DNA of 63,214 nt from Acidobacteriota bacterium (GCA_003222635.1 QHWQ01000021.1:1737-64950); one strand, 5' to 3'; numbered from the stretch's first letter, positions 3,643-47,598 are shown. Numbers and translations are program-made. Notes: generated by a model not told the origin, from the sequence alone.

Positions 3643-4673
3643 ATGCGCATCATGATCTCGTGCGGCGAGCCGTCCGGTGATCTGTACGCCGGAGCGCTGG
3701 CCGCCGAGATCCTTCGCCGCGATTCGTCCGCCGACATCTTCGGCTTCGGCGGTCAGCGTCTCGCATCGGCGGGTGCCCGGCTCATTGGCGACTTCCAGGG
3801 CATCTCGGTCACAGGGCTGACGGAAGCGATCCGCGTGCTGCCCCGATCGTTCGCGATGCTGCGGCGCCTGACCGGCGTCGCACGCGAGCGAAGGCCGGAC
3901 GTCTTCGTCGCGATCGACTTTCCCGACTTCAACTTCCGCCTGATGGCAGCGCTCCATCGCCTCGGCATTCCGGTGGTCTACTACATCAGCCCGCAGCTCT
4001 GGGCGTGGCGCGCCGGCCGCATGCAGACGATGAAGCGGTTCGTCAGCAGGGTGCTGGTGATCTTTCCGTTCGAAGAGGAGCTGTATCGAAGGGAAGGCGT
4101 GCCCGTGGAATGGCGGCGTCGCTGCCGCTGATACGCGCGCGCGTGCCTGATGTCCAGTTCGTCGTCGCCGCCGCGCCGAATCTGGCGGACGAACTATTCG
4201 AGCCGTTGGTCCGCCTCGAGGCGGACACTACCGAATCGATGCGAACCGAAACGGTAGCGTCCGGCTTCAGCCGGACCATCGTGTTGCGCGAACAGACGGA
4301 CGACGTGCTGGCGGCGTCAGATGTCGTGATCACCGCATCCGGCACCGCGACCGTGCAGGCGGCTCTGCACGAGCGCCCGATGGTCGTCGTCTACAAGCTC
4401 TCGCCGCTGACCTATCGCCTTGGAAAGCCGTTTGTACGGGTGGATACCTACGCGATGGCGAACCTCGTGGCCGGCAAGCGCGTTGTGCCCGAGTTGATCC
4501 AGGAAGGGTTCACTGCAGAACGGGTTGCGGAGGAGGCGATTCGTTTCCTGACGGATGGAGAGCTCTACACGCGCACGCGCGACGAGCTCCGCCTCGTGCG
4601 GGAGAAGCTCGGCGAGCCCGGCGCCAGCGGTCGCGCTGCTGACGCCGTGCTTGCCGCAGCATCTCGCCGTTAA
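3643..4673 (+). CDS. lpxB: Lipid-A-disaccharide synthase; split by an internal deletion/frameshift near 4110
   Basis: N-half GEPSGD, IDFPDFN, YYISPQLWAWR (3643-4131); C-half ASGTATVQAAL..PMVVVY, VVPELIQ (4005-4673 frame); the VGHP...LLPGSR block is absent. Confidence 0.9.
4209..4276. repeat. REP doublet (two GTAG-headed 23-nt palindromes, inverted) in frame within lpxB
   Basis: 4209-4231 (-) GTAGT-GTCCGCCTCGAGGCGGAC and 4254-4276 (+) GTAGC-GTCCGGCTTCAGCCGGAC, 22-nt spacer; translates VRLEADTT...VASGFSRT. Confidence 0.85.
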
Positions 4674-4680
4674 CGACCGA

Positions 4681-5040
4681 TTAGCGCTCCGACTGATCGA
4701 CGTCTTCGTCGCTCGAGCCGCGGCTTGACAGGTCTTCCTGTTCTTCACTGCTGCTCATCCCGCGATTCGAGATGCCGCTCGAACTGCTCGAGCTCGAGCT
4801 GCTCGACTCGTCGCTTCTGTTGCGCTCACCTGAACTGCCGGTGCCGCGCTCCTCACTGCCCATGTCGCCGGTGTCGTCCGACTGTCCGCCGCGCGCCTTG
4901 TCAGGCGAGCCTTGCTGGTCGCGCTGCGGCTTTGACTGGTTCCAGTTCTGATTGCCGCCCTGCGAGCCCTGCTGCTTCCCCGGGTTCTGCGGCTGGTTCT
5001 GCTTCTGCTGCTGACCCTGGGCGTTCTTGTTCTGGTCCAT
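4681..5040 (-). CDS. Small Q/S/G-rich low-complexity, probably disordered protein
   Basis: GGAGG RBS before ATG 5040; hydrophilic sequence MDQNKNAQGQQQ... Confidence 0.7.
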   Translation of the reverse strand: MDQNKNAQGQQQKQNQPQNPGKQQGSQGGNQNWNQSKPQRDQQGSPDKARGGQSDDTGDMGSEERGTGSSGERNRSDESSSSSSSSSSGISNRGMSSSEEQEDLSSRGSSDEDVDQSER

Positions 5041-5066
5041 GACGGACACCTCCACGCTCGACGGTC

Positions 5067-5081
5067 GCAAACGAGATGCCC
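5067..5081 (-). promoter_or_regulatory. Putative sigma-54 (-24/-12) promoter
   Basis: GGGCAT-CTCGT-TTGC (GG-N10-GC) upstream of the RBS of 4681-5040. Confidence 0.5.
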
Positions 5082-14366: not shown

Positions 14367-14464
14367 GTCCGGCTAAAGCCGGACCCTACCGACGATCCCC
14401 AGCCGGATGCAGACCGCGGCGTGGATCCGGAATGGAACACCGGTAGCGTCCGCCTTCAGCGGAC
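14367..14464. repeat. Intergenic REP doublet (REPIN-like)
   Basis: 14367-14389 (-) GTAGG-GTCCGGCTTTAGCCGGAC and 14443-14464 (+) GTAGC-GTCCGCCTTCAGCGGAC; same inverted arrangement as in lpxB, 53-nt spacer. Confidence 0.85.
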
Positions 14465-14478
14465 CTGAGGGGATACGT

Positions 14479-19467: not shown

Positions 19468-19493
19468 CGTCGAACCCCCGAACCCTCGAACCG

Positions 19494-19521
19494 ACTACCA
19501 ACTACCAACTACCAACTACCA
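19494..19521. repeat. Heptamer tandem repeat (ACTACCA)x4, inverted partner of degenerate TTGGTAG units at ~19140-19170
   Basis: Read directly from sequence between convergent mreB and ferredoxin genes. Confidence 0.85.
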
Positions 19522-19909: not shown

Positions 19910-20437
19910 ATGGCCGACGCGCCCGACCTGCCCGACCTCCCGCGACCGTCCCAGCTCTGGAAGCAACTCAGCGCCGAGAAGAAGCGCCTCGCCGCGGATT
20001 CGTTCTGGCGTGACGACCACGCGACCGCCGAGCAGGCGGAAGCGATCAACCTCATCGCGCAGCGCATCAAGTTCCGCGTGAAGAGCGTCGTGGCGATGCC
20101 CGTCGAGAAGAAGTCGCACTACGTGCTGGCCATGCCCGCGATCTCGGAGACGATGGCCGCGCGAATGCTCGTCGCGTATCACCTGGCGCACCAGCGGCCG
20201 ATGATGGGCGCGTTTCTCGACGCGCTCGGCATCGCGCACGAGGAGGGCATCATCGCCGAAGACGAGGTGCAGCCGCCCTCACCTGATGCGCTGAAGAAAG
20301 CCGCGAAGTCGATCGCGGCGTCCTATCCTTCGGAAGACGTGTCCTTATACCTCTCTACTCTCGTCTGGCAGGACCCGGAGACCTGGGGTCCTCTCGCTGA
20401 TCTTCCCGAAACCAAGTCCGTAGTTGGTAGTTCGTAG
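19910..20437 (+). CDS. Hypothetical protein
   Basis: Typical codon usage; FLDALGIAHEEG motif; fills the gap ahead of terC. Confidence 0.75.
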   Translation: MADAPDLPDLPRPSQLWKQLSAEKKRLAADSFWRDDHATAEQAEAINLIAQRIKFRVKSVVAMPVEKKSHYVLAMPAISETMAARMLVAYHLAHQRPMMGAFLDALGIAHEEGIIAEDEVQPPSPDALKKAAKSIAASYPSEDVSLYLSTLVWQDPETWGPLADLPETKSVVGSS

Positions 20438-20494
20438 TTGGTAGTCAGTCGTTGATAGTTGTCGCGACGAACTACCAACCACCAGCTACCAACT
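20420..20494. repeat. Inverted heptamer array (TTGGTAG)n...(CTACCAA)n
   Basis: Left arm 20420-20445 includes the upstream stop codon; right arm 20467-20494. Confidence 0.8.
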
Positions 20495-26939: not shown

Positions 26940-28038
26940 GCGGCGGAGGGGCGGGTGGAAGCAGCAGATCCGCTTGCGGAATAGGCTTCGGCCCCGACGG
27001 ATACCTCGATTGATAGACCGGTGCGTCCGGCAGCCGCGGCATATCCGCGCTCACGAACTGATCGACCGGCATCACCCAGAGTCCGCCGAGCAGCACCACC
27101 ACCAGCAGCGCCACCGCCATCAACACAAGACGCCGCCGGCTTGGCGCCGCGGCTGTCCCCGTTGAGGCTTTTGCGGCTTTCCGCTTCGGGCGGCCGGTCG
27201 CCGGAAGACGCAATCCCAGACTCGCTGCCCCCTCCTCGACGATCGCCGGCGTCAGCCGGTTCACACGCATCTGCGCCGCCTGCATCAGCGAGCGATCGCA
27301 GAGCAGGTTGATGATGCGCGGCACGCCGCCCGTGAAGGCGTGCACGAGATCGAGCGCGGCGGGTTCGAAGGTGACCGCCGTCGATCCGCGCGCGACCCAC
27401 AGCCGATGCGCGATGTAGGCCTCGACCTCCTCGCGGTTGAGCGGCTTGAGCGTGGCGCGAATCGAGATGCGCTGATCGAGCTGCCGCATCTCCACCGCCG
27501 CGAGCATGTCGAGCAGGTTCAGCTGGCCGACGAGCACGATTTGCAGCAGCTTCGATTCGTTCGTCTCCAGGTTGGAGACGATGCGGATCTGCTCGAGCAC
27601 CTGCGGCGAGAGGTGCTGCGCCTCGTCGATGATCAGCACCGCGCTGCCGTGAATCGGCATCAGCGAGAGCAGGAACTCGTGCAGCGTGCTGATGAGCGCG
27701 TGCTTGCTCGCGGTGGCGATGCGTCCGCTGCGCACGCCCTCGCGCGAGACGACGCCGAAGTCGAGCAGCACTTCGCGCAGCAGCTCTTCGACCGACAGAA
27801 ACGGATTCAGAATCAGCGACGTGAAGACGCTCGCGTCGAGCTGCTCGAGAAGCGCCCGGCAGCTCGTCGTCTTGCCGGTGCCGATGTCGCCCGTGAGGAC
27901 GATGAAACCTTCCTTGCGGCGGATGGCCTGCTGCAGGAGGGTGATCGCTTCGTCGTGCGATTCGCTGCGGTAGAGGAACCGCGGATCAGGTGTCAGCGTG
28001 AACGGCGGTTGTACGAAGCCGAAATACTGCTCGTACAT
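26869..28038 (-). CDS. ExeA/GspA-family AAA ATPase with C-terminal TM anchor and Pro-rich tail
   Basis: MYEQYFGF..PF.LTPDPRF, Walker A GDIGTGKT, Walker B LIIDEAQ, GVPRIINLLCD. Confidence 0.88.
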   Translation of the reverse strand: MYEQYFGFVQPPFTLTPDPRFLYRSESHDEAITLLQQAIRRKEGFIVLTGDIGTGKTTSCRALLEQLDASVFTSLILNPFLSVEELLREVLLDFGVVSREGVRSGRIATASKHALISTLHEFLLSLMPIHGSAVLIIDEAQHLSPQVLEQIRIVSNLETNESKLLQIVLVGQLNLLDMLAAVEMRQLDQRISIRATLKPLNREEVEAYIAHRLWVARGSTAVTFEPAALDLVHAFTGGVPRIINLLCDRSLMQAAQMRVNRLTPAIVEEGAASLGLRLPATGRPKRKAAKASTGTAAAPSRRRLVLMAVALLVVVLLGGLWVMPVDQFVSADMPRLPDAPVYQSRYPSGPKPIPQADLLLPPAPPPPSASSSAPAPPAGAPAPRARPAP

Positions 28039-28116: not shown

Positions 28117-29153
28117 ATGATCGCGCTGCTGATTCTGCTGTCGCTGCTCGCGCTTCCGCATCCGGCCATGGCGCAGGCCCGCGCACAGGCGCCGCCATCC
28201 CGTCCGCCGGCGACGCGCCCGCAGCCCGCGCGGCCGCCTGCGCCCGCGGATACCTATTTCGTCAGCACGCTGTCCGCGGCGGAAATCCAGAACAAGCAGG
28301 CCGTGATCGAGACGCCGATGGGCACCATCGTGCTCGACTTGCTCGCCGATGCCGCGCCGAATCATGTCGCGCACTTCATCACGCGCGCCCGCGAGGGTGC
28401 GTATGACGGCACGATCTTTCATCGCGTGATCCCGAACGGGATCATCCAGGGAGGCGATCCGCTCTCCACAGATCCCGCGCAAAGTGCACGCTACGGCACA
28501 GGTGGCATGCGGGAGCTGCGCTTCGAACGGAACAGCGAGCAGATGTCGCGCGGCGCGGTGGCGGCCACGCTCGCGCCGGGGATGCCCGACAGCGGCGGCT
28601 CGCAGTTCTTCATCTGCATCTTCGACCAGCTGCCGCTCACAGGTCAGTACACCGTGTTCGCCCGCGTGGCCGAAGGGCTGAACGTCGCGCAGAAGATCTC
28701 GCAGGTGGAGGCCGACAACACCGTGCCGAAGCAGCGCGTCGCCATGACGAAGGTGACCATTCGCGACAAGCCAGCGGCTGGTCCCGAGCCGTTCGCGACG
28801 GAAACGGCGGAGGAGCTGTCGAAGTATCGCGCGGTGCTCGAGACGTCGATCGGGAACATCACCTTCCAGTTCTTCCCGGACAAGGCGCCGAATCACGTGC
28901 GGAACTTCCTGCGCCTCGTCGATGATCAGCACCGCGCTGCCGTGAATCGGCATCAGCGAGAGCAGGAACTCGTGCAGCGTGCTGATGCATCGTCCTCGCG
29001 CGTACGCCGGTGCTCGACGGGAAATACACGGCTTTCGGCAAGGTGGTGGAGGGCATGGAGGTCGTCGAAAAGATCGAAGCCGTTACCGTCAACGGCGAGA
29101 CCCCCGTCAAGCGCGTCGAGTTGAAGAAAGTAGCCGTAACGAAGATCCCGTGA
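28117..29153 (+). CDS. Secreted double-cyclophilin peptidyl-prolyl isomerase; second domain interrupted at 28909-28987
   Basis: Signal peptide; APNHV..F, YDGTIFHRV, QGGDP, GSQFFI; second APNHVRNF, then LDGKYTAFGKVVEGMEVV in a shifted frame ending TGA 29153. Confidence 0.88.
28909..28987 (+). repeat. Exact 79-bp direct copy of 27616-27694
   Basis: CTGCGCCTCGTCGATGATCAGC...CAGCGTGCTGATG identical at both loci. Confidence 0.92.
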
Positions 29154-29438
29154 ATTGCGGACGTCCAGCCCCGGAGTAAGGGTAATGCTCGGTTTCGTTC
29201 GGTACTGCTTGCTGGAACGTCCCTCGACGAGCAGGTGGACGTGATCGGGCATGAAGCAGTACGCCAGAACCGCAAACGAACAGTCGCGTGCGGCGCGCGA
29301 AATCTGCTCCAGCACAAGGGCGACGGCGTCGGCGGTGATGAAGACCGGCGAACGCTCAAACGTGCAGAACGTCAAGAAATATGCGTGGAAGCCGATGTAA
29401 TCGAAGACGCGAAGATGCTGCGGCTGCCGCGGTCGCAC
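29154..29438 (-). mobile_element. REP-associated tyrosine transposase (RAYT, HUH/Y1 family), internally deleted
   Basis: FDY.G..AYFLTFCT, AYCFMPDHVHLL (HUH); C-terminal YPYSG present in another frame; catalytic-Tyr segment missing; REP immediately upstream. 3' end approximate. Confidence 0.85.
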
Positions 29439-29450
29439 GCCAGGGACGGC

Positions 29451-29465
29451 GCAATTCGCGTTCCA
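29451..29465 (-). promoter_or_regulatory. Putative sigma-54 promoter of the RAYT gene
   Basis: TGGAAC-GCGAA-TTGC; predicted +1 (~29439) coincides with GTG 29438. Confidence 0.45.
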
Positions 29466-29466
29466 C

Positions 29467-29489
29467 GTGGCGTCCGGCTTTAGCCGGAC
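29467..29489 (+). repeat. REP copy flanking the RAYT
   Basis: GTGGC-GTCCGGCTTTAGCCGGAC. Confidence 0.88.
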
Positions 29490-29532
29490 GTCCGCCATCA
29501 TCTCGATCTACTATTCGGCCCGGAGGGCGGAT

Positions 29533-30050: not shown

Positions 30051-32774
30051 ATGAAGCTTTCTGTTCGCATCCGTCTGTCACTGCTGCTGGCCGCGCTGGC
30101 GGCGGCGGTCGCGTCCGCCGCCGCCCAGCAGTACGCCATCCCGCCGAATGTCGCCGCCGCGAAGCTCGAGGACGTCGTCCCCGTCGATCCGCAGATCACG
30201 GTCGGCCGGCTGCCGAACGGCCTGCGCTACTACATCCGCGCCAACCAGATCCCGCAGGCGCGCGCGGAGCTGCGGCTGGTCGTCAACGCGGGCTCGGTGC
30301 TCGAGGAAGAGGACCAGCGCGGTCTCGCGCACTTCGTCGAGCACATGTCGTTCAACGGCACGCTCCACTTCCCGGGGCTCGACGTCGTCAACTTCATGCA
30401 GTCGCTCGGCATGCGCTTCGGCGCGCACGTCAACGCGAACACGAGCTTCGACGAGACGGTCTACGAGCTGCAGATCCCGACTGAGAATCCGGCGGTCATC
30501 GATCGCGCGCTCCTGGCGCTCGAGGACTGGGCGCACAACGTCACGTTCGACCCGACGGAGATCGAGAAGGAGCGCGGCGTCATCCTCGAGGAATGGCGTC
30601 AGGGGCTCGGCGCCGAGGAGCGGATCTCCAACAAGCAGTTCCCGCTGCTGCTGAAAGGGTCGCGCTATGCGGACCGGCTGCCGATCGGCACGCCGGACAT
30701 CATTCGCAATGCGAATCCCGATCGGCTGCGCGAGTTCTACAAGGATTGGTATCGCCCGGATCTGATGGGTGTGGTCGTCGTCGGCGACGTCAACAAGGCG
30801 ATGGTCGAGAACCTGATCAGATCCCACTTCGCCGCGATTCCGACGGCGCTCGATCCGAAGCCGCGCCCGGTCTTCACCGTCCCCGATCGGCCGGGCACGG
30901 GCACCGTCTACACGACGATCACGGATCCGGAGGCGACGAGCACGCGCATCGACATTTCCGTGCGGATGCCTGCGCGCCGCTTCGTCACCATCGGCGACTA
31001 CCGCCGCTCGATCGTCGAGCGGCTGTTCGGCGCGCTGCTCTCCGCGCGCCTCGGTGAAATCTCGAGTCAGCCGAACGCGCCGTTCCTGCGCGCGCAGACG
31101 GATCGCGGGTTGCTGGTCCGCACGGCCGAAGTGACGACGCTCGTCGCGCTGGTGCCGCCCAACGGCGTGGAGCGCGGGCTGACGTCGCTCTTCACCGAGG
31201 TCACTCGCGTCGCGCGCTTCGGCTTCACGCAGACCGAGGTCACTCGCGAGAAGCTGAACACGCAGCTGTATCTGGAACGCGCGATGGCCGAACGCGAGAA
31301 GAGCGACTCGGGCCCGCTCGCGGACGAATACGTCCGCAACTTCATTCACAACGAGCCGATTCCCGGCATCGTCTACGAGTACGGCCTGAGCCAGCGGTTC
31401 ACGCCCGAGATCACGCTCGCGGAGGTCAACGCGCTCGCCAGGGACTGGGTGCCGGATCACGATCGTCTCGTCCTCGTCGCGGCGCCCGAAAAAGATCGCG
31501 CGCTGCTGCCGACCGAGGCGCGCATGGCCGCGGTCATCAAGGCGGTCACCGATGCACCGCTCACCGCCTATGTCGACACCGTCAGCAACATGCCGCTCAT
31601 GGCGATGAAGCCGGCGCCGGGAACGGTCGCGAAGGAAACGAAGAACGACGCGATCGGCGTCACGGAGTGGACGCTCGCGAACGGCGTGCGTGTGGTGCTG
31701 AAGCCGACCACCAACAAGCAGGACGAAGTCATTTTCCGCGCCGTGAGCCCCGGCGGCACGTCGCTGGTAAGCGACGCGGACTTCCTTCCCGCTGCCACCG
31801 CCGCGGATGTGATCGAGCAGGGCGGCCTCGGCACCTTCAACAGCACCAATCTCGCGAAGGTGCTCGCGGATCCGGTCGCGTTCGGCGTGCTGAAGGATCA
31901 GCTGAAGGTCGCGCTCGCCAATCAGCGATCGATGCCCGAGACGCTGTTCGACGAGACCCTCAGCGCCGCGCTCACGCAGAACCATCCACGGGCGCAGCCG
32001 CTGACGCCCGAGCGGCTCGACCAGATGAATCTCGAGAAGTCGCTTGCCTTCTACAAGGACCGCTTCGCCGACGCGAGCAACTTCACGTTCGTCTTCGTCG
32101 GCAGCTTCGACCTGCCGACGATGAAGCCGCTCGTGGAGCGGTATCTGGGCAGCCTGCCGTCACTGCGCCGCATGGAGACGGTGAAGGACGTCGGCATGCA
32201 TCCGCCGGCGGAGGTCGTCAACAGGGAGGTGCGCGCCGGCATCGAGCCGCGCAGCCAGGTGTCGATCGTCTTCAGCGGGCCGTTCCAGAACGACGAGCAG
32301 CATCGCGTCATCGCCAACGCCATGGCCGACACGCTGGGCGGCAACCTGCAGCGCACGCTGCGCGAGGACCTCGGCGGGACGTACGGCGTCAGCGTCGAAC
32401 CGAATTACCAGAAGCGCCCGACGCAGGAGTACCGCATCGCCATCAACTTCGGGTGCGATCCGCAGCGCGTGAACGACCTGGTCGCCGCCGCGTTCCGTGT
32501 GATCGACACGTTCAAGGCGGTGGGCCCGAGCCAGAGCCAGGTGGCCGACGCGCGCCAGGGGCTGACGCGCGACCTCGAGGTCAACAGCCGCGACAACCAG
32601 TACCTGCTGAACCGGCTGCTGTTCAAGTACGAGTACGGCGAGAACGTCGCGGACGTCTTCAACATGCAGCCGTTCTACGAGCAGGTGACCACCGCCGCCA
32701 TCCGCGACGCCGCGCGGATGTACCTGAACACCAACCGCTACGTGAAGGTCACGCTGATGCCGGTGACGAACTGA
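30051..32774 (+). CDS. PqqL-like single-chain M16 zinc peptidase (~40 aa missing near 31868)
   Basis: HFVEH, NANTSFDETVY, LREDLGGTY; lacks the block ending DLET..QL.Y that is present in the paralog at 40305. Confidence 0.92.
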   Translation: MKLSVRIRLSLLLAALAAAVASAAAQQYAIPPNVAAAKLEDVVPVDPQITVGRLPNGLRYYIRANQIPQARAELRLVVNAGSVLEEEDQRGLAHFVEHMSFNGTLHFPGLDVVNFMQSLGMRFGAHVNANTSFDETVYELQIPTENPAVIDRALLALEDWAHNVTFDPTEIEKERGVILEEWRQGLGAEERISNKQFPLLLKGSRYADRLPIGTPDIIRNANPDRLREFYKDWYRPDLMGVVVVGDVNKAMVENLIRSHFAAIPTALDPKPRPVFTVPDRPGTGTVYTTITDPEATSTRIDISVRMPARRFVTIGDYRRSIVERLFGALLSARLGEISSQPNAPFLRAQTDRGLLVRTAEVTTLVALVPPNGVERGLTSLFTEVTRVARFGFTQTEVTREKLNTQLYLERAMAEREKSDSGPLADEYVRNFIHNEPIPGIVYEYGLSQRFTPEITLAEVNALARDWVPDHDRLVLVAAPEKDRALLPTEARMAAVIKAVTDAPLTAYVDTVSNMPLMAMKPAPGTVAKETKNDAIGVTEWTLANGVRVVLKPTTNKQDEVIFRAVSPGGTSLVSDADFLPAATAADVIEQGGLGTFNSTNLAKVLADPVAFGVLKDQLKVALANQRSMPETLFDETLSAALTQNHPRAQPLTPERLDQMNLEKSLAFYKDRFADASNFTFVFVGSFDLPTMKPLVERYLGSLPSLRRMETVKDVGMHPPAEVVNREVRAGIEPRSQVSIVFSGPFQNDEQHRVIANAMADTLGGNLQRTLREDLGGTYGVSVEPNYQKRPTQEYRIAINFGCDPQRVNDLVAAAFRVIDTFKAVGPSQSQVADARQGLTRDLEVNSRDNQYLLNRLLFKYEYGENVADVFNMQPFYEQVTTAAIRDAARMYLNTNRYVKVTLMPVTN

Positions 32775-40315: not shown

Positions 40316-43121
40316 CGCCGCAGCATACGCGATCACGCTCCTTCTGCTTGCCGCCGCGCCCGCGTGGTCGCAAGCGCCCCAATCATCGTCGGCGAAGCTG
40401 CCGCTCACTCCGGCCATCCACGTGGGCAAGCTGCCCAACGGCATCACCTACTACGTCCGGCAGAACTCGCTTCCCGCCAAACGCGTCTCGCTGCGGATGG
40501 CCGTGAAGGCGGGCTCGATCGACGAGGCCGACGATCAGCGCGGGCTGGCGCACATGCTCGAGCACATGGCGTTCAACGGGACGACGCACTTCAAGCCGGG
40601 CGAGCTGGTGGCCTACTTCGAATCGATCGGCGTCTCGTTCGGCGCGCACGTCAACGCCTATACGAGCTACGACGAGACGGTGTACATGCTCGACGTGCCG
40701 ACCGATCGCGCGGGCGCCCTCGATCACGGCCTGCAGGCGATGGCCGACTTCGCTGGCGGCATGAGTCTCACCGATGCCGAAATCGACAAGGAGCGCGGCG
40801 TCGTCCTCGAGGAGTGGCGTCAGCGCCTCGGCGTGCAGTCGCGCCTGCAGGGCATTACCGACAAAGCCATCTACGGCAACTCGAAGTACGCCGAGCGTCT
40901 GCCGATCGGCACACCCGAATCGATTCAGAAGTTTCCGTATCAGCGCGTGCGCGATTTCTATCGCGCGAATTACACCACCGATCGCATCGGCTTCGTCATC
41001 GTCGGCGACATCGACGCCGCGGCCGCGGAGACGCTCGTGCGCCAGTACTTCGGCGTCCTACCGGCGCGCAAATCGGCGAAGCGTCCGATCTATCCGGTTC
41101 CTCCGCACAACGACACGCGCGTCACGGTCGCCACCGACCCCGAAGCGCAGTCGACGTCCGTGTCGGTTTTCCACACGCGTCCGCTGCGCAAGTCGCTGAC
41201 GGTGGGCGAGTATCGCCGCGATCTGGTCCGCAGCCTGTTCGAGTCGATGCTCAACGCCCGCCTCGCCGAAATCGCCCGTCGCCCTGACGCGCCGTTTCTC
41301 GGTGCCTCCGCGGGCGACGACACCCTCGGGCAGACCGTCGAAGCGTTCGGCGTCTCCGCGCGCGTGAACGAAGGTGGCGTCCCGAAAGGGATCGAGGCGC
41401 TCGAGCAGGAGCTCGCACGCGTGCGGCAGTTTGGCTTCGGCGATGCGGAGCTCGAGCGCGTCAAGAAAGCCACGCTCGCATCGTACGAACGGGCGTACAA
41501 CGAACGTGACAAGTCCGAAAGCCCGGGGCTCGCGTCGGAGCTGGTGTCGTTGTATCTGAACGACGTGCCCGCGCCCGGCATCGCGGTCGAATACGACCTC
41601 GCGAAGCGGTTCGTGCCGACGGTCAACACCACCGAGACTGCCGCGCTGGCCCGTGAGCTCGTCACCGAAAACAATCGCGTCGTCATCGCGGTCGCGCCGG
41701 AGAAGAAAGATGTGACGCCGCCGAGCGAGGCGATGGTGCGCGATGCGCTGCGCACGGGCGCCGCGGCCACGCTGACCGCCTGGAAAGACGAGGCGAAGGG
41801 CAAGGAGCTGCTGCCGGCCAAGCCGACGCCGGGCACGATCGCCTCTCGCCGCGACGTCCCGGAGATCGGCGTCACGGTGCTCACACTGTCGAACGGCGTA
41901 GAGGTGTGGCTGAAGCCGACGGACTTCAAGAACGATCAGATCGTCTTCACCGCGTATGCGAAGGGCGGCACGCTGAACGTGCCGGAGGCCGACTATCGCA
42001 ACGCATCGATGATGACGAGCCTGATCGGGATTTCAGGCGTGGGCGGGTTGTCGCCGGTGGATCTTGGCAAGATGCTGTCAGGGCAGATTGCGAACGCGTC
42101 GCTCTCGATGGGCCCCTACACGCATGGCGCCGGCGGCGGCAGCACGCCGAAGGATCTCGAGACCGCGCTGCAGCTGATGTACCTGTCGTTCACCGCCGCC
42201 AACCACGATCCGGACGCGTTCGAGCTGATGAAGCGTCGGCTGCGCGCGAACCTGGAGAACCAGGCGCAGAGTCCCGGCGCCGTCTACGGCGAACGCGTGC
42301 GTCTGGTCAACACGAACAATCACTACATCTCGCGGTCGATGAAGATCGAGGACGTGGACGCGCTCGACCAGGCGAAGATGGAGGCGTTCTACAAGACGCA
42401 GTTCGCCAACGCCGCCGACTTCACGTTCTTCTTCGTCGGCGCGTTCGACGTGGCGAAGATCGAGCCGCTGCTGGCGACCTACATCGGCTCGCTGCCGTCG
42501 CAGGGCAAGCCGACGTCCACCTACAGTGACGTTCGCCTGACGTTCCCGATGGGCGTGAAGAAGGAGATCGTCAACAAGGGACAGGAGCCGAAGGCGCAGA
42601 CGGTCATTTCCTTCTACGCGGAGTCGAACCTGAACGAGCTCGAGATGCACCGCCTGCGCGCCGCCACCGACATCCTCGAGCGTCACCTGCGCGACCAGCT
42701 GCGCGAGGAGCTTGGCGGCACCTACAGCGTCGGCGTCGATTACTCGAACACGCTGCCGCAGCCCGGCTACGGTACGACGAGCGTCCAGTTCGGCAGCGCG
42801 CCCGATCGCGTGGACAGTCTGGTTGCGACGGTGATGACCGAGCTCGATCGCATGCGCCGCGACGGTCCGAGCGCGGACGATGTGCAGAAGGTGAAGGAGA
42901 CGGAGAAGGAAGGGCTCGAGACCTCCTTCAAGCAGAACGGCTTCTGGCTCGGCGCGCTGCAGACCGCGCAGATGCTTGGCTGGGATCCGGTCAGCATCAT
43001 CCATCGCACCGAGCGCACCGACACGCTCACGGCGGAGAACATCCACGACGCGTTCCGGAAATACTTCCCCGCGGATCGCTACACGCAGCTCACGCTCCTT
43101 CCGGAGAAAGGAACGCAGTAG
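40305..43121 (+). CDS. PqqL-like single-chain M16 zinc peptidase
   Basis: Signal peptide from TTG 40305; [25 protein letters not shown]. Confidence 0.92.
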
Positions 43122-45912: not shown

Positions 45913-47598
45913 TTGTCCTTTCCCGATCTCCGCTCCTTCATTGATCGCCTCCAGCGTGACAACGACATCGTCACGGTGGAGGCGCCGGTCGATCGGAATC
46001 TCGAAGTCGCTGAAATCCATCGCCGCGTGATCGCCGCCGGCGGTCCCGCGCTGATGTTCACCAATGTCCGGCTAAAGCCGGACGCTACCGCGACTTCTCC
46101 TTTTCGTCTCGTCACGAACTTGTTCGGCACGGCGCGGCGAGCGGAGCTGGCGTTCGGCGAGCGGCCTCTGCGACTGATACGCCGCGTCGTGGAGCTGGCG
46201 GAAACGCTGCTGCCGCCGACGCCGGGCAAGCTGTGGAGCGCGCGCGACGTCGGCAAGGAGCTGCTGAGGGTCGGCACGCGCAACGTGCAGACGGGTCCTG
46301 TCGTCGAGAACGTCACGTTCGATGTGGATCTGAGTCGTCTGCCCGTCATCACCTGCTGGCCGGAGGATGGCGGGCCGTTCATCACGCTGCCGCTCGTCTA
46401 CACGCAGCATCCCGATCGACCATGCCACAACCTTGGCATGTACCGGATGCACGTCTACGACAGCCGCACGACCGGCATGCACTGGCAGATTGGCAAGGGC
46501 GGCGGCTTTCACTACGCCGCGGCCGAAGCGCGCGGCGCGACGCTGCCAGTCACGGTGTTTCTCGGAGGACCTCCGGCGCTGATCCTCTCGGCGATCGCGC
46601 CGCTGCCCGAGAACGTGCCGGAGCTGATGCTCGCCTCGCTCATCGCGGGCGAGCGACTGCCGCAGGTGCAGGGTTACGGACCGCATCCGTTGATGGCGAA
46701 CGCGGAGTTCGCGCTGATGGGCGAGGTGCCGCCGCGGGTGCGAAAGCCGGAGGGGCCCTTCGGCGATCACTACGGCTACTACTCGCTGCAGCACGATTAC
46801 CCGGTATTCGAGGTGCGCCGGGTTGCGCATCGAAACGACGCAATCTATCCGGCGACCGTCGTCGGCAAGCCCCGGCAGGAAGACTTCTACATCGGCGATC
46901 TGCTGCAGGAGCTGCTGTCGCCGCTGTTTCCGCTGGTGATGCCGGCCGTCGAGCGTCTCTGGTCGTACGGCGAGACCGGTTATCACTCGCTGGCGGCGGC
47001 GGTCGTCAAGCAGCGCTACGGCCGCGAGGCGATGGCGAGCGCGTTCCGCATCCTCGGCGAAGGGCAGCTCTCGCTGACGAAGTTCCTGCTGCTGACCGAT
47101 CGCCGCGTCGATCTGCGCAACTTCAAGGCGACGCTCGAGCATCTGCTCGCGCGGACGCATCCGGAAACCGATCTCTACGTGTTCTCGAATCTGTCGATGG
47201 ACACGCTCGACTACACGGGTCCGGCCGTGAATCAGGGATCCAAAGGCGTGTGGCTGGGGCTCGGCGATGCCGTGCGCGAGCTGCCGCGTGCATTCACGGC
47301 CGCCGAGCTGCGTGGTGTCACGGATGTGCGTGTCTTCTGCGCCGGCTGTCTCGTCGTCGGCGTCCCCTCGCGCGCGTCGGATCCTGACGCGCCCGCGCGC
47401 ATTGCCGGCGACGCCGCGTTCCGCGAGTGGCCGTTGATCGTGCTGACCGAAGAACCGATGCGCGCCGCCGCGAGCTCGATGAACTTCCTGTGGACGACCT
47501 TCACGGCGACCGCGCGCACCGTGACCCAGCGATGGAAGGAGTATTTCCCGGACCGCAACGTGGAGATGGGCGATTCGATCAAGGCCAGCCTCGATTGA
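45913..47598 (+). CDS. UbiD family prFMN-dependent decarboxylase (C-terminal block missing near 47505)
   Basis: WPEDGGPFITLP, NLGMYRM, EGPFGDHYGYY, GKPRQED, DTLDY. Confidence 0.9.
   Translation: MSFPDLRSFIDRLQRDNDIVTVEAPVDRNLEVAEIHRRVIAAGGPALMFTNVRLKPDATATSPFRLVTNLFGTARRAELAFGERPLRLIRRVVELAETLLPPTPGKLWSARDVGKELLRVGTRNVQTGPVVENVTFDVDLSRLPVITCWPEDGGPFITLPLVYTQHPDRPCHNLGMYRMHVYDSRTTGMHWQIGKGGGFHYAAAEARGATLPVTVFLGGPPALILSAIAPLPENVPELMLASLIAGERLPQVQGYGPHPLMANAEFALMGEVPPRVRKPEGPFGDHYGYYSLQHDYPVFEVRRVAHRNDAIYPATVVGKPRQEDFYIGDLLQELLSPLFPLVMPAVERLWSYGETGYHSLAAAVVKQRYGREAMASAFRILGEGQLSLTKFLLLTDRRVDLRNFKATLEHLLARTHPETDLYVFSNLSMDTLDYTGPAVNQGSKGVWLGLGDAVRELPRAFTAAELRGVTDVRVFCAGCLVVGVPSRASDPDAPARIAGDAAFREWPLIVLTEEPMRAAASSMNFLWTTFTATARTVTQRWKEYFPDRNVEMGDSIKASLD
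46066..46088 (-). repeat. Single REP copy in frame within the ubiD-family gene
   Basis: GTAGC-GTCCGGCTTTAGCCGGAC on the minus strand; encodes VRLKPDAT between LMFTN and SPFRLVTNLFG. Confidence 0.88.

What the first reader, a model, noticed from the sequence alone, without database searches (positions are those of the whole stretch)
4209..4276. REP doublet translated in frame inside LpxB
Seen: two inverted REPs add about 23 residues (VRLEADTTESMRTETVASGFSRT) to the C-terminal half of lpxB without a stop. Established: Rickettsia palindromic elements insert in frame into proteins. Inference: a RAYT-linked REPIN has created a peptide loop in a normally essential enzyme, so repeats act as a source of new protein sequence.
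Basis: partly seen in the sequence, partly recalled or inferred. Interest (0 to 1): 0.78.

Follow-up and report, generated by a model that had tools for sequence, protein, structure and literature searches.

The report
Mobile palindrome pair translated inside LpxB
A pair of small mobile palindromic DNA repeats sits in frame inside the lipid A enzyme gene lpxB of a soil acidobacterium and adds a floppy surface loop, a known kind of event now seen in a new bacterial group and in some two dozen of its other genes.

Summary
Window 4209-4276 is a REP doublet of REPIN type: two 18-nt hairpins with inward-facing GTAG/CTAC tails and an 18-nt spacer. The family has about 200-270 copies and 64 such doublets in this 5.6-Mb MAG. 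It is read without a stop as 23 codons of lpxB.

31 of 35 congeners lack the insert. Three carry an insert in the same loop within intact 401-407-aa LpxB proteins. In an AlphaFold model of one carrier, the insert is the only low-confidence segment, a loop between a helix and a strand.

Contigs from three other soil runs do not share it, so it is probably an assembly artefact or a variant.

The event is not isolated. 38 of 231 hairpins lie in 25 further ORFs with coding-like flanks, and 12 of these are confirmed by Pfam. RAYT genes flanked by this REP occur in two congeners.

In-frame intragenic REPs are already in print (PMC3733652). This is a new member of a known kind, in Vicinamibacterales. 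Interest is moderate.

The parts
3643..4110 (+). lpxB 5' part, the N-terminal domain, up to ...EGVPVE
   Evidence: Pfam PF02684 profile positions 1-157 of 374, E 7.3e-38. It is 86% identical to residues 1-154 of G018 LpxB.
4110..4111 (+). Junction of a 148-nt deletion with frameshift, compared with congeners. The lost stretch corresponds to FVGHPL...RIVPG of congeners, about 49 codons plus 1 nt.
   Evidence: DNA alignment with G018, G015 and G001 and protein alignment. Residues 155-201 of G018 LpxB are found nowhere in the MAG. Contigs X2 record 13 and X3 record 18 carry 146 extra letters exactly here, with 0 other letters in the flanks. X1 record 6 diverges from the window exactly here. No contig in the four runs shows the window's junction.
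4111..4673 (+). lpxB 3' part, the C-terminal domain, in the frame of ORF 4005..4673, from MAASLPL... to the stop
   Evidence: Pfam PF02684 profile positions 245-360, E 8.3e-22. ORF list.
4209..4226 (+). Left REP hairpin GTCCGCC-TCGA-GGCGGAC, read as VRLEAD
   Evidence: It differs from the family consensus GTCCGCCTGAAGGCGGAC only in the loop.
4227..4233 (+). Left tail ACTACCG, the complement of the GTAG tag
   Evidence: Family consensus flank CCTACCG / CGGTAGG. Doublet list.
4234..4251 (+). 18-nt spacer AATCGATGCGAACCGAAA
   Evidence: four of the 64 inward-tailed doublets have an 18-nt spacer. The 14-mer CGAACCGAAACGGT is unique in this genome. Within the genus it recurs only in the lpxB insert of G001, plus one unrelated site in G004.
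4252..4258 (+). Right tail CGGTAGC, carrying the GTAG tag
4259..4276 (+). Right REP hairpin GTCCGGC-TTCA-GCCGGAC, read as (A)SGFSRT
   Evidence: there are 22 identical copies in the genome. It lies at the same codon position as the REP arms in lpxB of G018, G015 and G033.
4209..4277 (+). The 23 REP-encoded codons VRLEADTTESMRTETVASGFSRT
   Evidence: Translation of ORF 4005..4673.
14367..14465 (.). Intergenic doublet of the same family with a 49-nt spacer
   Evidence: C185:16103-16201.
29472..29489 (+). Single REP of the family beside the RAYT remnant
28953..29501 (-). Truncated RAYT-like ORF. The HUH half is present and the C-terminal half is missing.
   Evidence: NCBIfam NF047646 profile positions 10-70 of 146, 45.1 bits, below the cut-off of 80. 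It aligns with the REP-flanked RAYTs of G044 and G004 up to ...MPDHVHLLVEG and then diverges. About 360 nt are missing relative to G044.
46066..46089 (-). Single REP with tail, in frame inside a UbiD-family gene (45913-47595, +), read as VRLKPDAT
   Evidence: Pfam UbiD_N spans residues 10-95 for 77 profile positions.

Best explanation
A REPIN, meaning an inverted pair of GTAG-tagged REP hairpins that RAYT (HUH/Y1) transposases are thought to mobilise, lies in the part of lpxB that encodes a helix-to-strand connecting loop of the C-terminal Rossmann-like domain.

In this reading frame neither arm nor the spacer holds a stop codon, and the frame is kept. The element is therefore transcribed and translated as part of LpxB. 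It lengthens a disordered surface loop by roughly 12-18 residues net and leaves the fold intact.

It is most likely a tolerated passenger, neutral or nearly so, and not an adaptation. The insertion is old. It is shared with, and has decayed to different degrees in, other species of the genus.

The same REP family has entered at least two dozen other genes of this organism in the same way.

What is shown: the repeat family, the open frame, the absence from most orthologues, the loop position in a model of a congener, and the genome-wide pattern.

What is inferred: mobilisation by RAYT, translation of the peptide, neutrality, and that the 148-nt deletion upstream is not a property of the living population.
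For: **Family and structure**
- 200 exact hairpins in this genome and 64 doublets with inward-facing tails.
- The lpxB copy departs from the consensus only in its loops and one tail base.
- It folds as one long hairpin, z = -5.84.

**Frame**
- 23 sense codons in ORF 4005..4673.

**Orthologues**
- In the genus, 4 of 36 genomes (G000, G001, G015, G018) have a long insert at this loop. 31 have a short loop. One best hit (G038) is too divergent to judge.
- The three other carriers encode uninterrupted LpxB of 401, 405 and 407 aa.

**Loop position**
- The model of G018 LpxB has mean pLDDT 89.7. Its only segment below 50 is 244-260, inside the insert, between helix 229-240 and strand 266-268.
- The top Foldseek hits are the E. 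coli LpxB entries 5w8x, 5w8s and 5w8n.
- By phmmer, 48 residues of the query lie between the two aligned stretches, against 29 in 5w8s.

**Real DNA, not a misassembly**
- X2 record 13 covers 4110-4600 in one piece with 5 other letters.

**Age**
- The right arm ends at the same codon in G000, G018, G015 and the G033 remnant.
- The 14-mer in the spacer is shared with the G001 insert only.
- A clade of the 4 carriers plus 5 neighbours is not rejected, p-AU 0.28.

**Generality**
- 38 of 231 canonical hairpins lie in 25 ORFs with a coding-type GC profile on both flanks.
- 22 of the 25 ORFs have Pfam hits. In 12 of the 25 a domain spans the REP or domains lie on both sides.

**RAYT link**
- REP arrays flank the two best-scoring RAYT genes, in G044 and G004, on both sides.
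Against: - In the window lpxB is split by a frameshifting 148-nt deletion. This assembly therefore encodes no full-length LpxB. The missing piece is nowhere else in the MAG.
- No RNA or peptide evidence was obtained.
- The structural model is of the G018 protein, not of this organism's, and its insert differs in sequence.
- The 4 carriers are rejected as an exclusive clade, p-AU 0.004. A single gain therefore needs later losses. The 9-row group was named after the tree had been seen.
- Third codon positions between carriers are only 40-57% identical, yet the arms are still perfect palindromes of each genome's own subfamily. Pure neutral inheritance does not explain this.
- In this MAG only 1 of 4 RAYT-like genes has a REP of this family within 1.5 kb, and that gene is truncated.
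- Only 2 of the 12 RAYT-like loci scanned for REPs in the five congeners are REP-flanked.
Confidence: 0.82

Rival explanations
1. lpxB of this organism is a dying pseudogene. The 148-nt deletion is real and fixed, and the REPIN merely sits in decaying DNA, so the open frame means nothing.
For: The window encodes two overlapping ORFs in place of one gene. The deleted stretch includes the conserved GHP and LLPGSR segments. It is absent from all 428 contigs. There is no second lpxB in the MAG.
Against: - Contigs from X2 and X3 match the flanks with 0 other letters and carry 146 extra letters exactly at 4110/4111. X1 record 6 also leaves the window there. No contig reproduces the deleted junction.
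- The flanking lpxB codons keep a coding-type profile: GC3 is 0.80-0.81 downstream of the doublet.
- Three congeners with an insert at the same site have intact genes.
- The same contig shows a second suspect spot, a 79-nt exact duplicate beside a truncated RAYT. This fits local assembly faults.
Confidence: 0.07
2. The loop is a landing hot spot. The inserts in G000, G018, G015 and G001 arose by separate insertions of each genome's own REPs, or by renewed copying onto a resident REP, and not by one ancestral event passively inherited.
For: - The arms match each genome's dominant stem subfamily. G000 has 200 GTCC-type against 12 of the G/C-stem (GGCC-type) pattern, and its lpxB arms are GTCC. 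G015 has 1 against 125, and its lpxB arms are GGCC.
- The arms are perfect palindromes although third codon positions are 40-57% identical between these species.
- G018 has three same-orientation units in place of an inverted pair.
- The carriers are rejected as an exclusive clade, p-AU 0.004.
Against: - The right arm ends at the identical codon in all of them, and G033 has a remnant at the same place.
- The G000 and G001 inserts share a 14-mer found nowhere else in either genome.
- A 9-genome clade that would allow one gain is not rejected.
- No target motif for REP insertion was identified here.
Confidence: 0.25
3. The insert is kept because it is useful. It could act as an RNA or DNA hairpin (mRNA stability, translational pausing, a protein-binding site) or as a functional peptide loop of LpxB.
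For: The hairpin is very stable, -44.4 kcal/mol, z = -5.84. The palindromes persist across species whose synonymous sites are saturated. G015 differs from G000 by paired changes on both sides of the stem.
Against: 31 of 35 congeners do without the insert. In G001 the arms have decayed while the gene is intact. The peptide is not conserved between carriers. The shared 14-mer is read in different frames in G000 and G001. The same element sits in many unrelated proteins, which argues against a role specific to LpxB. There is no Rfam match.
Confidence: 0.1
4. The doublet inside lpxB is an assembly chimera, with repeat reads wrongly threaded through the gene.
For: The contigs of X1 and X3 break inside the doublet, at 4203-4219. 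The contig has other suspect spots.
Against: X2 record 13 runs through the whole doublet, 4110-4600. The reading frame is kept. Three other species carry REP-derived inserts at the same codon.
Confidence: 0.02

Closest known systems
Intragenic GTAG-tagged REPs (Di Nocera, De Gregorio and Rocco 2013, BMC Genomics 14:522, PMC3733652; abstract and passages read)
   Same: Short palindromes with a GTAG tag at one end, present in high copy number and mostly as head-to-head dimers. They are associated with RAYT genes ('REPtrons'). A minority lie inside known genes, where dimers encode 20-30 amino acids, sometimes twice in one ORF. All of these features were seen here.
   Different: The hosts in that paper are others: Opitutus terrae, Thauera, Thioalkalivibrio and more. 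For Acidobacteria the passages mention only TIR-flanked transposases. The text does not contain the word lpxB (0 occurrences). Its table of intragenic REPs (Additional file 3.xls) could not be read. The cross-species history of a single intragenic site is not described in the passages read.
Rickettsia palindromic elements (RPE). Ogata et al. 2002 Genome Res and Claverie and Ogata 2003 TIBS were seen only as citations in PMC3733652. The rest is recalled.
   Same: Palindromic repeats inserted in frame into many unrelated, apparently functional proteins. They add surface peptide segments and then decay in situ.
   Different: There is no sequence relation. PMC3733652 files the short intragenic Rickettsia repeats as CGTC-tagged, with no dedicated transposase. 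This element is GTAG-tagged and RAYT-linked. The host here is a free-living soil bacterium with a large genome, not a reduced intracellular one.
REPIN-RAYT systems (Bertels and Rainey 2011, PMC3116915; Nunvar et al. 2010, PMC2817692; both seen as search listings only)
   Same: Two inverted REPs form one long hairpin. There are hundreds of copies per genome. The RAYT genes are single or few and are flanked by REPs. Inheritance is vertical within a genus.
   Different: As I recall them, REPINs are described as extragenic. Here about one hairpin in six lies inside an ORF with coding-like flanks.
E. coli LpxB, lipid-A-disaccharide synthase (PDB 5w8s, 5w8x, 5w8n)
   Same: The flanking protein is a clear orthologue: phmmer E 2.3e-49, Foldseek E 6.6e-21, Pfam PF02684.
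   Different: E. coli has 29 residues where G018 has 48 between the two aligned blocks. It carries no REP-derived segment.

Membership tests
GTAG-tagged REP / REPIN | Short GC-rich palindrome (stem-loop) with a conserved GTAG tetranucleotide at one end | tested here: met
   The consensus is CGGTAG(G/T)-GTCCGSC-TNNA-GSCGGAC. The tail is on one side in 143 of 202 exact hairpins. The lpxB arms carry ACTACCG and CGGTAGC.
GTAG-tagged REP / REPIN | High copy number, dispersed through the genome | tested here: met
   200 exact copies, against 0 for the reversed control. 267 copies with tail, against 24 in the shuffled genome. Copies lie on many contigs.
GTAG-tagged REP / REPIN | Inverted pairs that can fold into one long hairpin | tested here: met
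   64 of 99 neighbouring pairs have inward-facing tails. The lpxB copy folds as a single hairpin of -44.4 kcal/mol, z = -5.84.
GTAG-tagged REP / REPIN | A cognate RAYT gene flanked by the same REPs | tested here: inconclusive
   Met in congeners. G044 L183 (105.8 bits) and G004 L184 (97.6 bits) have 3-4 REPs on one side and 1-2 on the other, in opposite orientation. The other 10 RAYT-like loci scanned have none. In this MAG there are 4 RAYT-like ORFs and one passes the cut-off. Only the truncated window copy has a GTCC-type REP nearby.
GTAG-tagged REP / REPIN | Mobilisation (cleavage and joining) by the RAYT | not testable with these tools
   This needs biochemistry or mobilome sequencing.
Rickettsia palindromic elements (RPE) | Membership of one of the Rickettsia RPE sequence families | not tested
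   No RPE sequence was compared. The element is GTAG-tagged, whereas PMC3733652 files the short intragenic Rickettsia repeats as CGTC-tagged. It is treated as an analogue, not a member.
Rickettsia palindromic elements (RPE) | In-frame residence in many unrelated protein genes without disrupting the fold | tested here: met
   25 ORFs plus lpxB. In 12 of them Pfam domains lie across or on both sides of the REP. The insert is a loop in the LpxB model.
LpxB (PF02684, GT19) | Full-length match to the family profile in one reading frame | tested here: not met
   In the window the match is in two frames (profile 1-157 and 245-360), and profile positions 158-244 are largely absent. Contigs from other runs carry the missing 148 nt. 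Congeners give full-length matches.

The most novel reading that the evidence does not exclude
The lpxB loop is a long-lived home of a REPIN whose arms are continually renewed. Synonymous sites between the carrier species are saturated (third-position identity 0.40-0.57). Even so, the arms remain perfect palindromes of whichever stem subfamily dominates each genome: GTCC in G000, and GGCC in G015 with both stem sides changed. This would mean that RAYT-driven re-copying, homing onto a resident REP, or gene conversion with the genomic REP population operates inside an essential gene and keeps rewriting a protein loop. The same process would apply to the two dozen other REP-bearing genes of this genus.
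Probability: 0.3. Interest if true: 0.65.

Novelty: new member of a known kind. Interest (0 to 1): 0.45.

Why it matters
It extends in-frame, protein-coding REP insertions to free-living soil Acidobacteriota (Vicinamibacterales, named from record titles) and to an enzyme of lipid A synthesis. The genus has 36 sequenced species that show the same site at different stages: an intact doublet, a rearranged array, a single-arm remnant, decayed arms, and no insert. That makes it a natural series for asking how long such inserts last, whether they are renewed, and how often they become lasting protein sequence.

It also carries a practical warning. This MAG contig has at least one, and probably two, local defects. 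A gene caller would label lpxB a pseudogene here.

Tried and rejected
- **Rfam.** No family reached its gathering score in the whole window. The only weak hit at 4100-4400 was gntR-DTE, 16.9 bits against a gathering score of 63.6, E 0.83, taken as chance.
- **RNA evidence.** Nothing can be said on expression.
- **Run X5.** It gave only short pieces at 90-95% likeness over the repeat and the conserved SPQLWAW region, and none over the deletion junction. It is uninformative for this organism.
- **The 4 carriers as an exclusive clade.** Rejected.
- **A direct repeat as the cause of the 148-nt deletion.** The contigs leave only 2 nt (AT) shared at the junction, so no clear slippage repeat exists.
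- **First GC-profile screen.** It pooled both flanks and admitted non-family palindromes. It was replaced by the stricter screen.
- **The stricter screen misses lpxB itself.** The deletion spoils the left flank, so its count of 25 ORFs is a lower bound for that reason, and also because contigs are short.
- **Literature.** No paper in the library holds both 'Vicinamibacter' and 'repetitive extragenic palindrom'. Of the 17 papers holding lpxB, palindromic, insertion and repeat, the 10 listed have titles on other subjects, and none was read.
- One search was corrected.

Full report
**1. What is at 4209-4276**

The stretch reads GTCCGCCTCGAGGCGGAC, ACTACCG, AATCGATGCGAACCGAAA, CGGTAGC, GTCCGGCTTCAGCCGGAC. 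It consists of two 7-bp-stem hairpins. Their short tails are complementary and face each other across an 18-nt spacer.

Position 4209 starts a codon of ORF 4005..4673, and 4209-4277 translate to VRLEADTTESMRTETVASGFSRT. As RNA the 80 nt around it fold into one long hairpin of -44.4 kcal/mol, z = -5.84; 0 of 200 shuffles were as stable.

**2. It belongs to a large repeat family**

- The right arm with its tail recurs at 14367, 29466 and 46066 in the window: 4 matches, 0.00 expected.
- The window lies in a 5.63-Mb MAG of 428 contigs.
- In that MAG the exact pattern GTCCGSCTNNAGSCGGAC occurs 200 times, and its reversed control 0 times.
- Of 202 hairpins with a 4-nt loop, 71 have the tail on the right, 72 on the left and 59 have none recognised. 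The consensus is CGGTAGG / CCTACCG, a GTAG tag.
- Allowing 3 substitutions, 267 oriented REP-plus-tail units are found, against 24 in a shuffled genome.
- 99 neighbouring pairs lie within 200 nt. Of these, 64 have the tails inward, with spacers of -2 to 83 nt.
- In these doublets one arm is of GGC...GCC type and the other of GCC...GGC type. The lpxB copy follows this rule and departs from the consensus only in its two loops and one tail base.
- Nothing in Rfam matches.

**3. The host gene**

Pfam places LpxB profile positions 1-157 in ORF 3643..4131 and positions 245-360 in ORF 4005..4673. This is the only lpxB locus in the MAG.

Alignment with three congeners shows a 148-nt gap in the window at 4110/4111. 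It removes about 49 codons, corresponding to FVGHPL...RIVPG of congeners, and shifts the frame. Residues 155-201 of the G018 protein are found nowhere in the MAG.

Laying Logan contigs from four soil runs gave the following:
- X2 record 13 and X3 record 18 match both flanks with 0 other letters. Each carries 146 letters between window 4111 and 4110, which makes 148 with the 2 shared letters.
- X1 record 6 matches 4110-4203 and runs on unlike the window for 123 letters upstream.
- No contig shows the window's junction.

I conclude that an intact allele exists in nature, and that the deletion is an assembly fault or a minority variant. Contigs cannot exclude the latter. X2 record 13 also runs unbroken over 4110-4600, so the doublet is truly inside lpxB.

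**4. Orthologues**

All 36 genomes of the genus have LpxB. A split profile match at positions 229/250 marks G000, G001, G015 and G018.

Between the anchors VQF and TDDVL, residue counts are:

| Genome | Residues |
|---|---|
| G000 | 53 |
| G018 | 59 |
| G015 | 65 |
| G001 | 65 |
| Nine insert-free genomes printed | 35-41 |

The wider alignment shows the same short loop in the rest, and G004 does too. G038's best hit is too divergent to judge. The 12 same-order genomes outside the genus show no such split.

The three other carriers encode uninterrupted proteins of 401-407 aa.

At the DNA level:
- G018 has three same-orientation REP-like units ending in GTCCGGCTTTAGCCGGAC.
- G015 has a full doublet with GGCC stems.
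- G001 has decayed arms.
- G033 has a single-arm remnant.

The right arm ends at the same codon in all of them (...CGG ACC/CCC ATC).

**5. Where it lies in the protein**

E. coli LpxB (5w8s) aligns to G018 residues 4-222 and 271-392. That leaves 48 residues in the query against 29 in the chain.

An AlphaFold2 model of G018 LpxB was built on 40 sequences and has mean pLDDT 89.7 and pTM 0.87. Its only segment below pLDDT 50 is 244-260. The insert forms the coil between helix 229-240 and strand 266-268. The best Foldseek hits are 5w8x, 5w8s and 5w8n.

In Rossmann-like domains the ligand sites lie at the other ends of the strands, so a helix-to-strand loop should be remote from the cleft. This follows from general knowledge of the fold and was not measured here. 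The model is of a congener, not of this organism.

**6. History**

- On an LpxB tree with the insert columns removed, G000 and G018 fall in a 7-genome group with five insert-free genomes. G001 and G015 sit in an unresolved base.
- Holding the 4 carriers as an exclusive clade is rejected, p-AU 0.004. A 9-genome clade made of the carriers plus G033, G006, G035, G041 and G044 is not rejected, p-AU 0.28. That group was named after the tree had been seen.
- The 14-mer CGAACCGAAACGGT of the G000 spacer occurs once in G000, once in G001 inside its lpxB insert, and once elsewhere in G004. It is absent from the other 33 genomes. G000 and G001 read it in different frames.

This favours one old insertion followed by decay and deletion.

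**7. A point left unexplained**

Third codon positions of lpxB are only 40-57% identical between the carriers. Yet the arms in G000, G018 and G015 are perfect palindromes, and they follow each genome's dominant subfamily:

| Genome | GTCC type | G/C-stem (GGCC-type) pattern | lpxB arms |
|---|---|---|---|
| G000 | 200 | 12 | GTCC |
| G015 | 1 | 125 | GGCC |
| G018 | 76 | 91 | GTCC (right arm) |

Passive neutral inheritance does not explain this. Renewal in place, recurrent insertion at one site, or selection on the hairpin all remain open.

**8. The event is not isolated**

Of 231 canonical hairpins, 38 lie in 25 ORFs. Each has at least 50 open codons on each side, and both flanks have a coding-type GC profile. 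The lpxB copies fail this screen only because of the deletion.

Pfam finds families in 22 of the 25 ORFs. In 12 of the 25 a domain spans the REP or domains lie on both sides:
- GlgE N/S
- 2-oxoacid dehydrogenase E2 linker
- thiolase N/C junction
- UbiD_N (in the window)
- Dus
- PALP of threonine synthase
- Fer4_7
- response regulator-LytTR linker
- FAD_binding_2
- PrmA
- protein kinase
- DEAD of an Lhr-type helicase

Several envelopes are longer than their profiles, for example Fer4_7 with 94 residues for 51 positions and Pkinase with 274 for 252.

**9. RAYT**

- The MAG has four ORFs matching NCBIfam REP-associated tyrosine transposase. One scores above the cut-off, at 93.4 bits.
- The window copy (28953-29501, minus strand) has a REP at 29472-29489. 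It stops matching after the HUH motif and lacks about 360 nt present in G044.
- In G044 and G004 the best-scoring RAYT genes are flanked by 3-4 REPs on one side and 1-2 on the other, in opposite orientation. The other 10 RAYT-like loci scanned have none.

**10. What is known**

PMC3733652 (abstract and passages read) defines GTAG- and CGTC-tagged REPs, their dimers and RAYT 'REPtrons'. It reports intragenic copies in several species, most of them in O. terrae and R. conorii, with dimers encoding 20-30 amino acids. It cites the Rickettsia RPE work. Its text has no 'lpxB'. For Acidobacteria it mentions only TIR-flanked transposases. Its supplementary table of intragenic REPs could not be opened.

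No paper in the library holds both 'Vicinamibacter' and 'repetitive extragenic palindrom'.

Exact copies of the REP with its tail occur in MAGs titled Vicinamibacterales or Acidobacteriota, with one odd record titled Bifidobacterium breve.

**11. Verdict**

The kind of event is already known. The host lineage, the gene and the multi-species series at one site are new. The counts for the genus include G009, an unpublished genome. It contributes only one insert-free row and one REP count.

Noticed in passing
window 4110-4111: A 148-nt frameshifting deletion splits lpxB in this assembly. Contigs from three other soil runs carry or point to the missing piece.
   Followed up: yes
window 28953-29501 (-), 27616-27694 and 28909-28987: A RAYT-like ORF keeps the HUH half only and lacks about 360 nt present at the syntenic G044 locus. 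Right beside it, a 79-nt stretch is an exact duplicate of part of the neighbouring ExeA-like ATPase gene 1.3 kb away. This looks like a second local assembly fault or a rearrangement.
   Followed up: partly
window 46066-46089, inside ORF 45913-47595 (+): A single REP of the same family is read in frame as VRLKPDAT in the N-terminal domain of a UbiD-family decarboxylase. Pfam UbiD_N covers 86 residues for 77 profile positions.
   Followed up: partly
G000 contig C91:33-1607 (L056) and C11:1659-4070 (L053): One membrane-protein ORF carries two separate REP doublets in frame. Another carries a doublet plus a third REP-like unit. Three paralogous membrane proteins with a spermine-synthase-like domain (L052, L053, L062) each carry a doublet in hydrophobic surroundings that look like a loop between membrane helices (my reading; no topology prediction was run).
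   Followed up: partly
window 14367-14465: An intergenic doublet of the family with a 49-nt spacer lies between two divergently oriented ORF starts.
   Followed up: no
window 4681-5070 (-): Directly downstream of lpxB, on the other strand, is a 129-aa ORF of very low complexity, rich in Q, N, G, S, D and E. It was not searched.
   Followed up: no
window 19490-19519 and 20420-20449: 30-nt inverted arms, 93% complementary, made of ACTACCA-type heptamer runs and lying 900 nt apart. Seen only in the repeat list.
   Followed up: no
window 30269-30528 and 40490-40749: Several direct repeats share the same 10221-nt spacing at 71-89% identity. One motif (...FVEHM.FNG...) also recurs at 240-296. This suggests two paralogous gene clusters, possibly M16-type peptidases; that name is my guess from the motif.
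   Followed up: no
L097 (record titled Bifidobacterium breve MAG): One exact copy of the 25-nt REP-plus-tail lies in a record labelled Bifidobacterium breve, among about 80 listed Acidobacteriota and Vicinamibacterales records. It is probably a binning contaminant.
   Followed up: no
G004:C40:65500-68600 (L026): lpxB of G004 is in three frames, with profile matches 1-39, 44-175 and 185-373, and has no REP insert. These are likely indel errors of that assembly.
   Followed up: no
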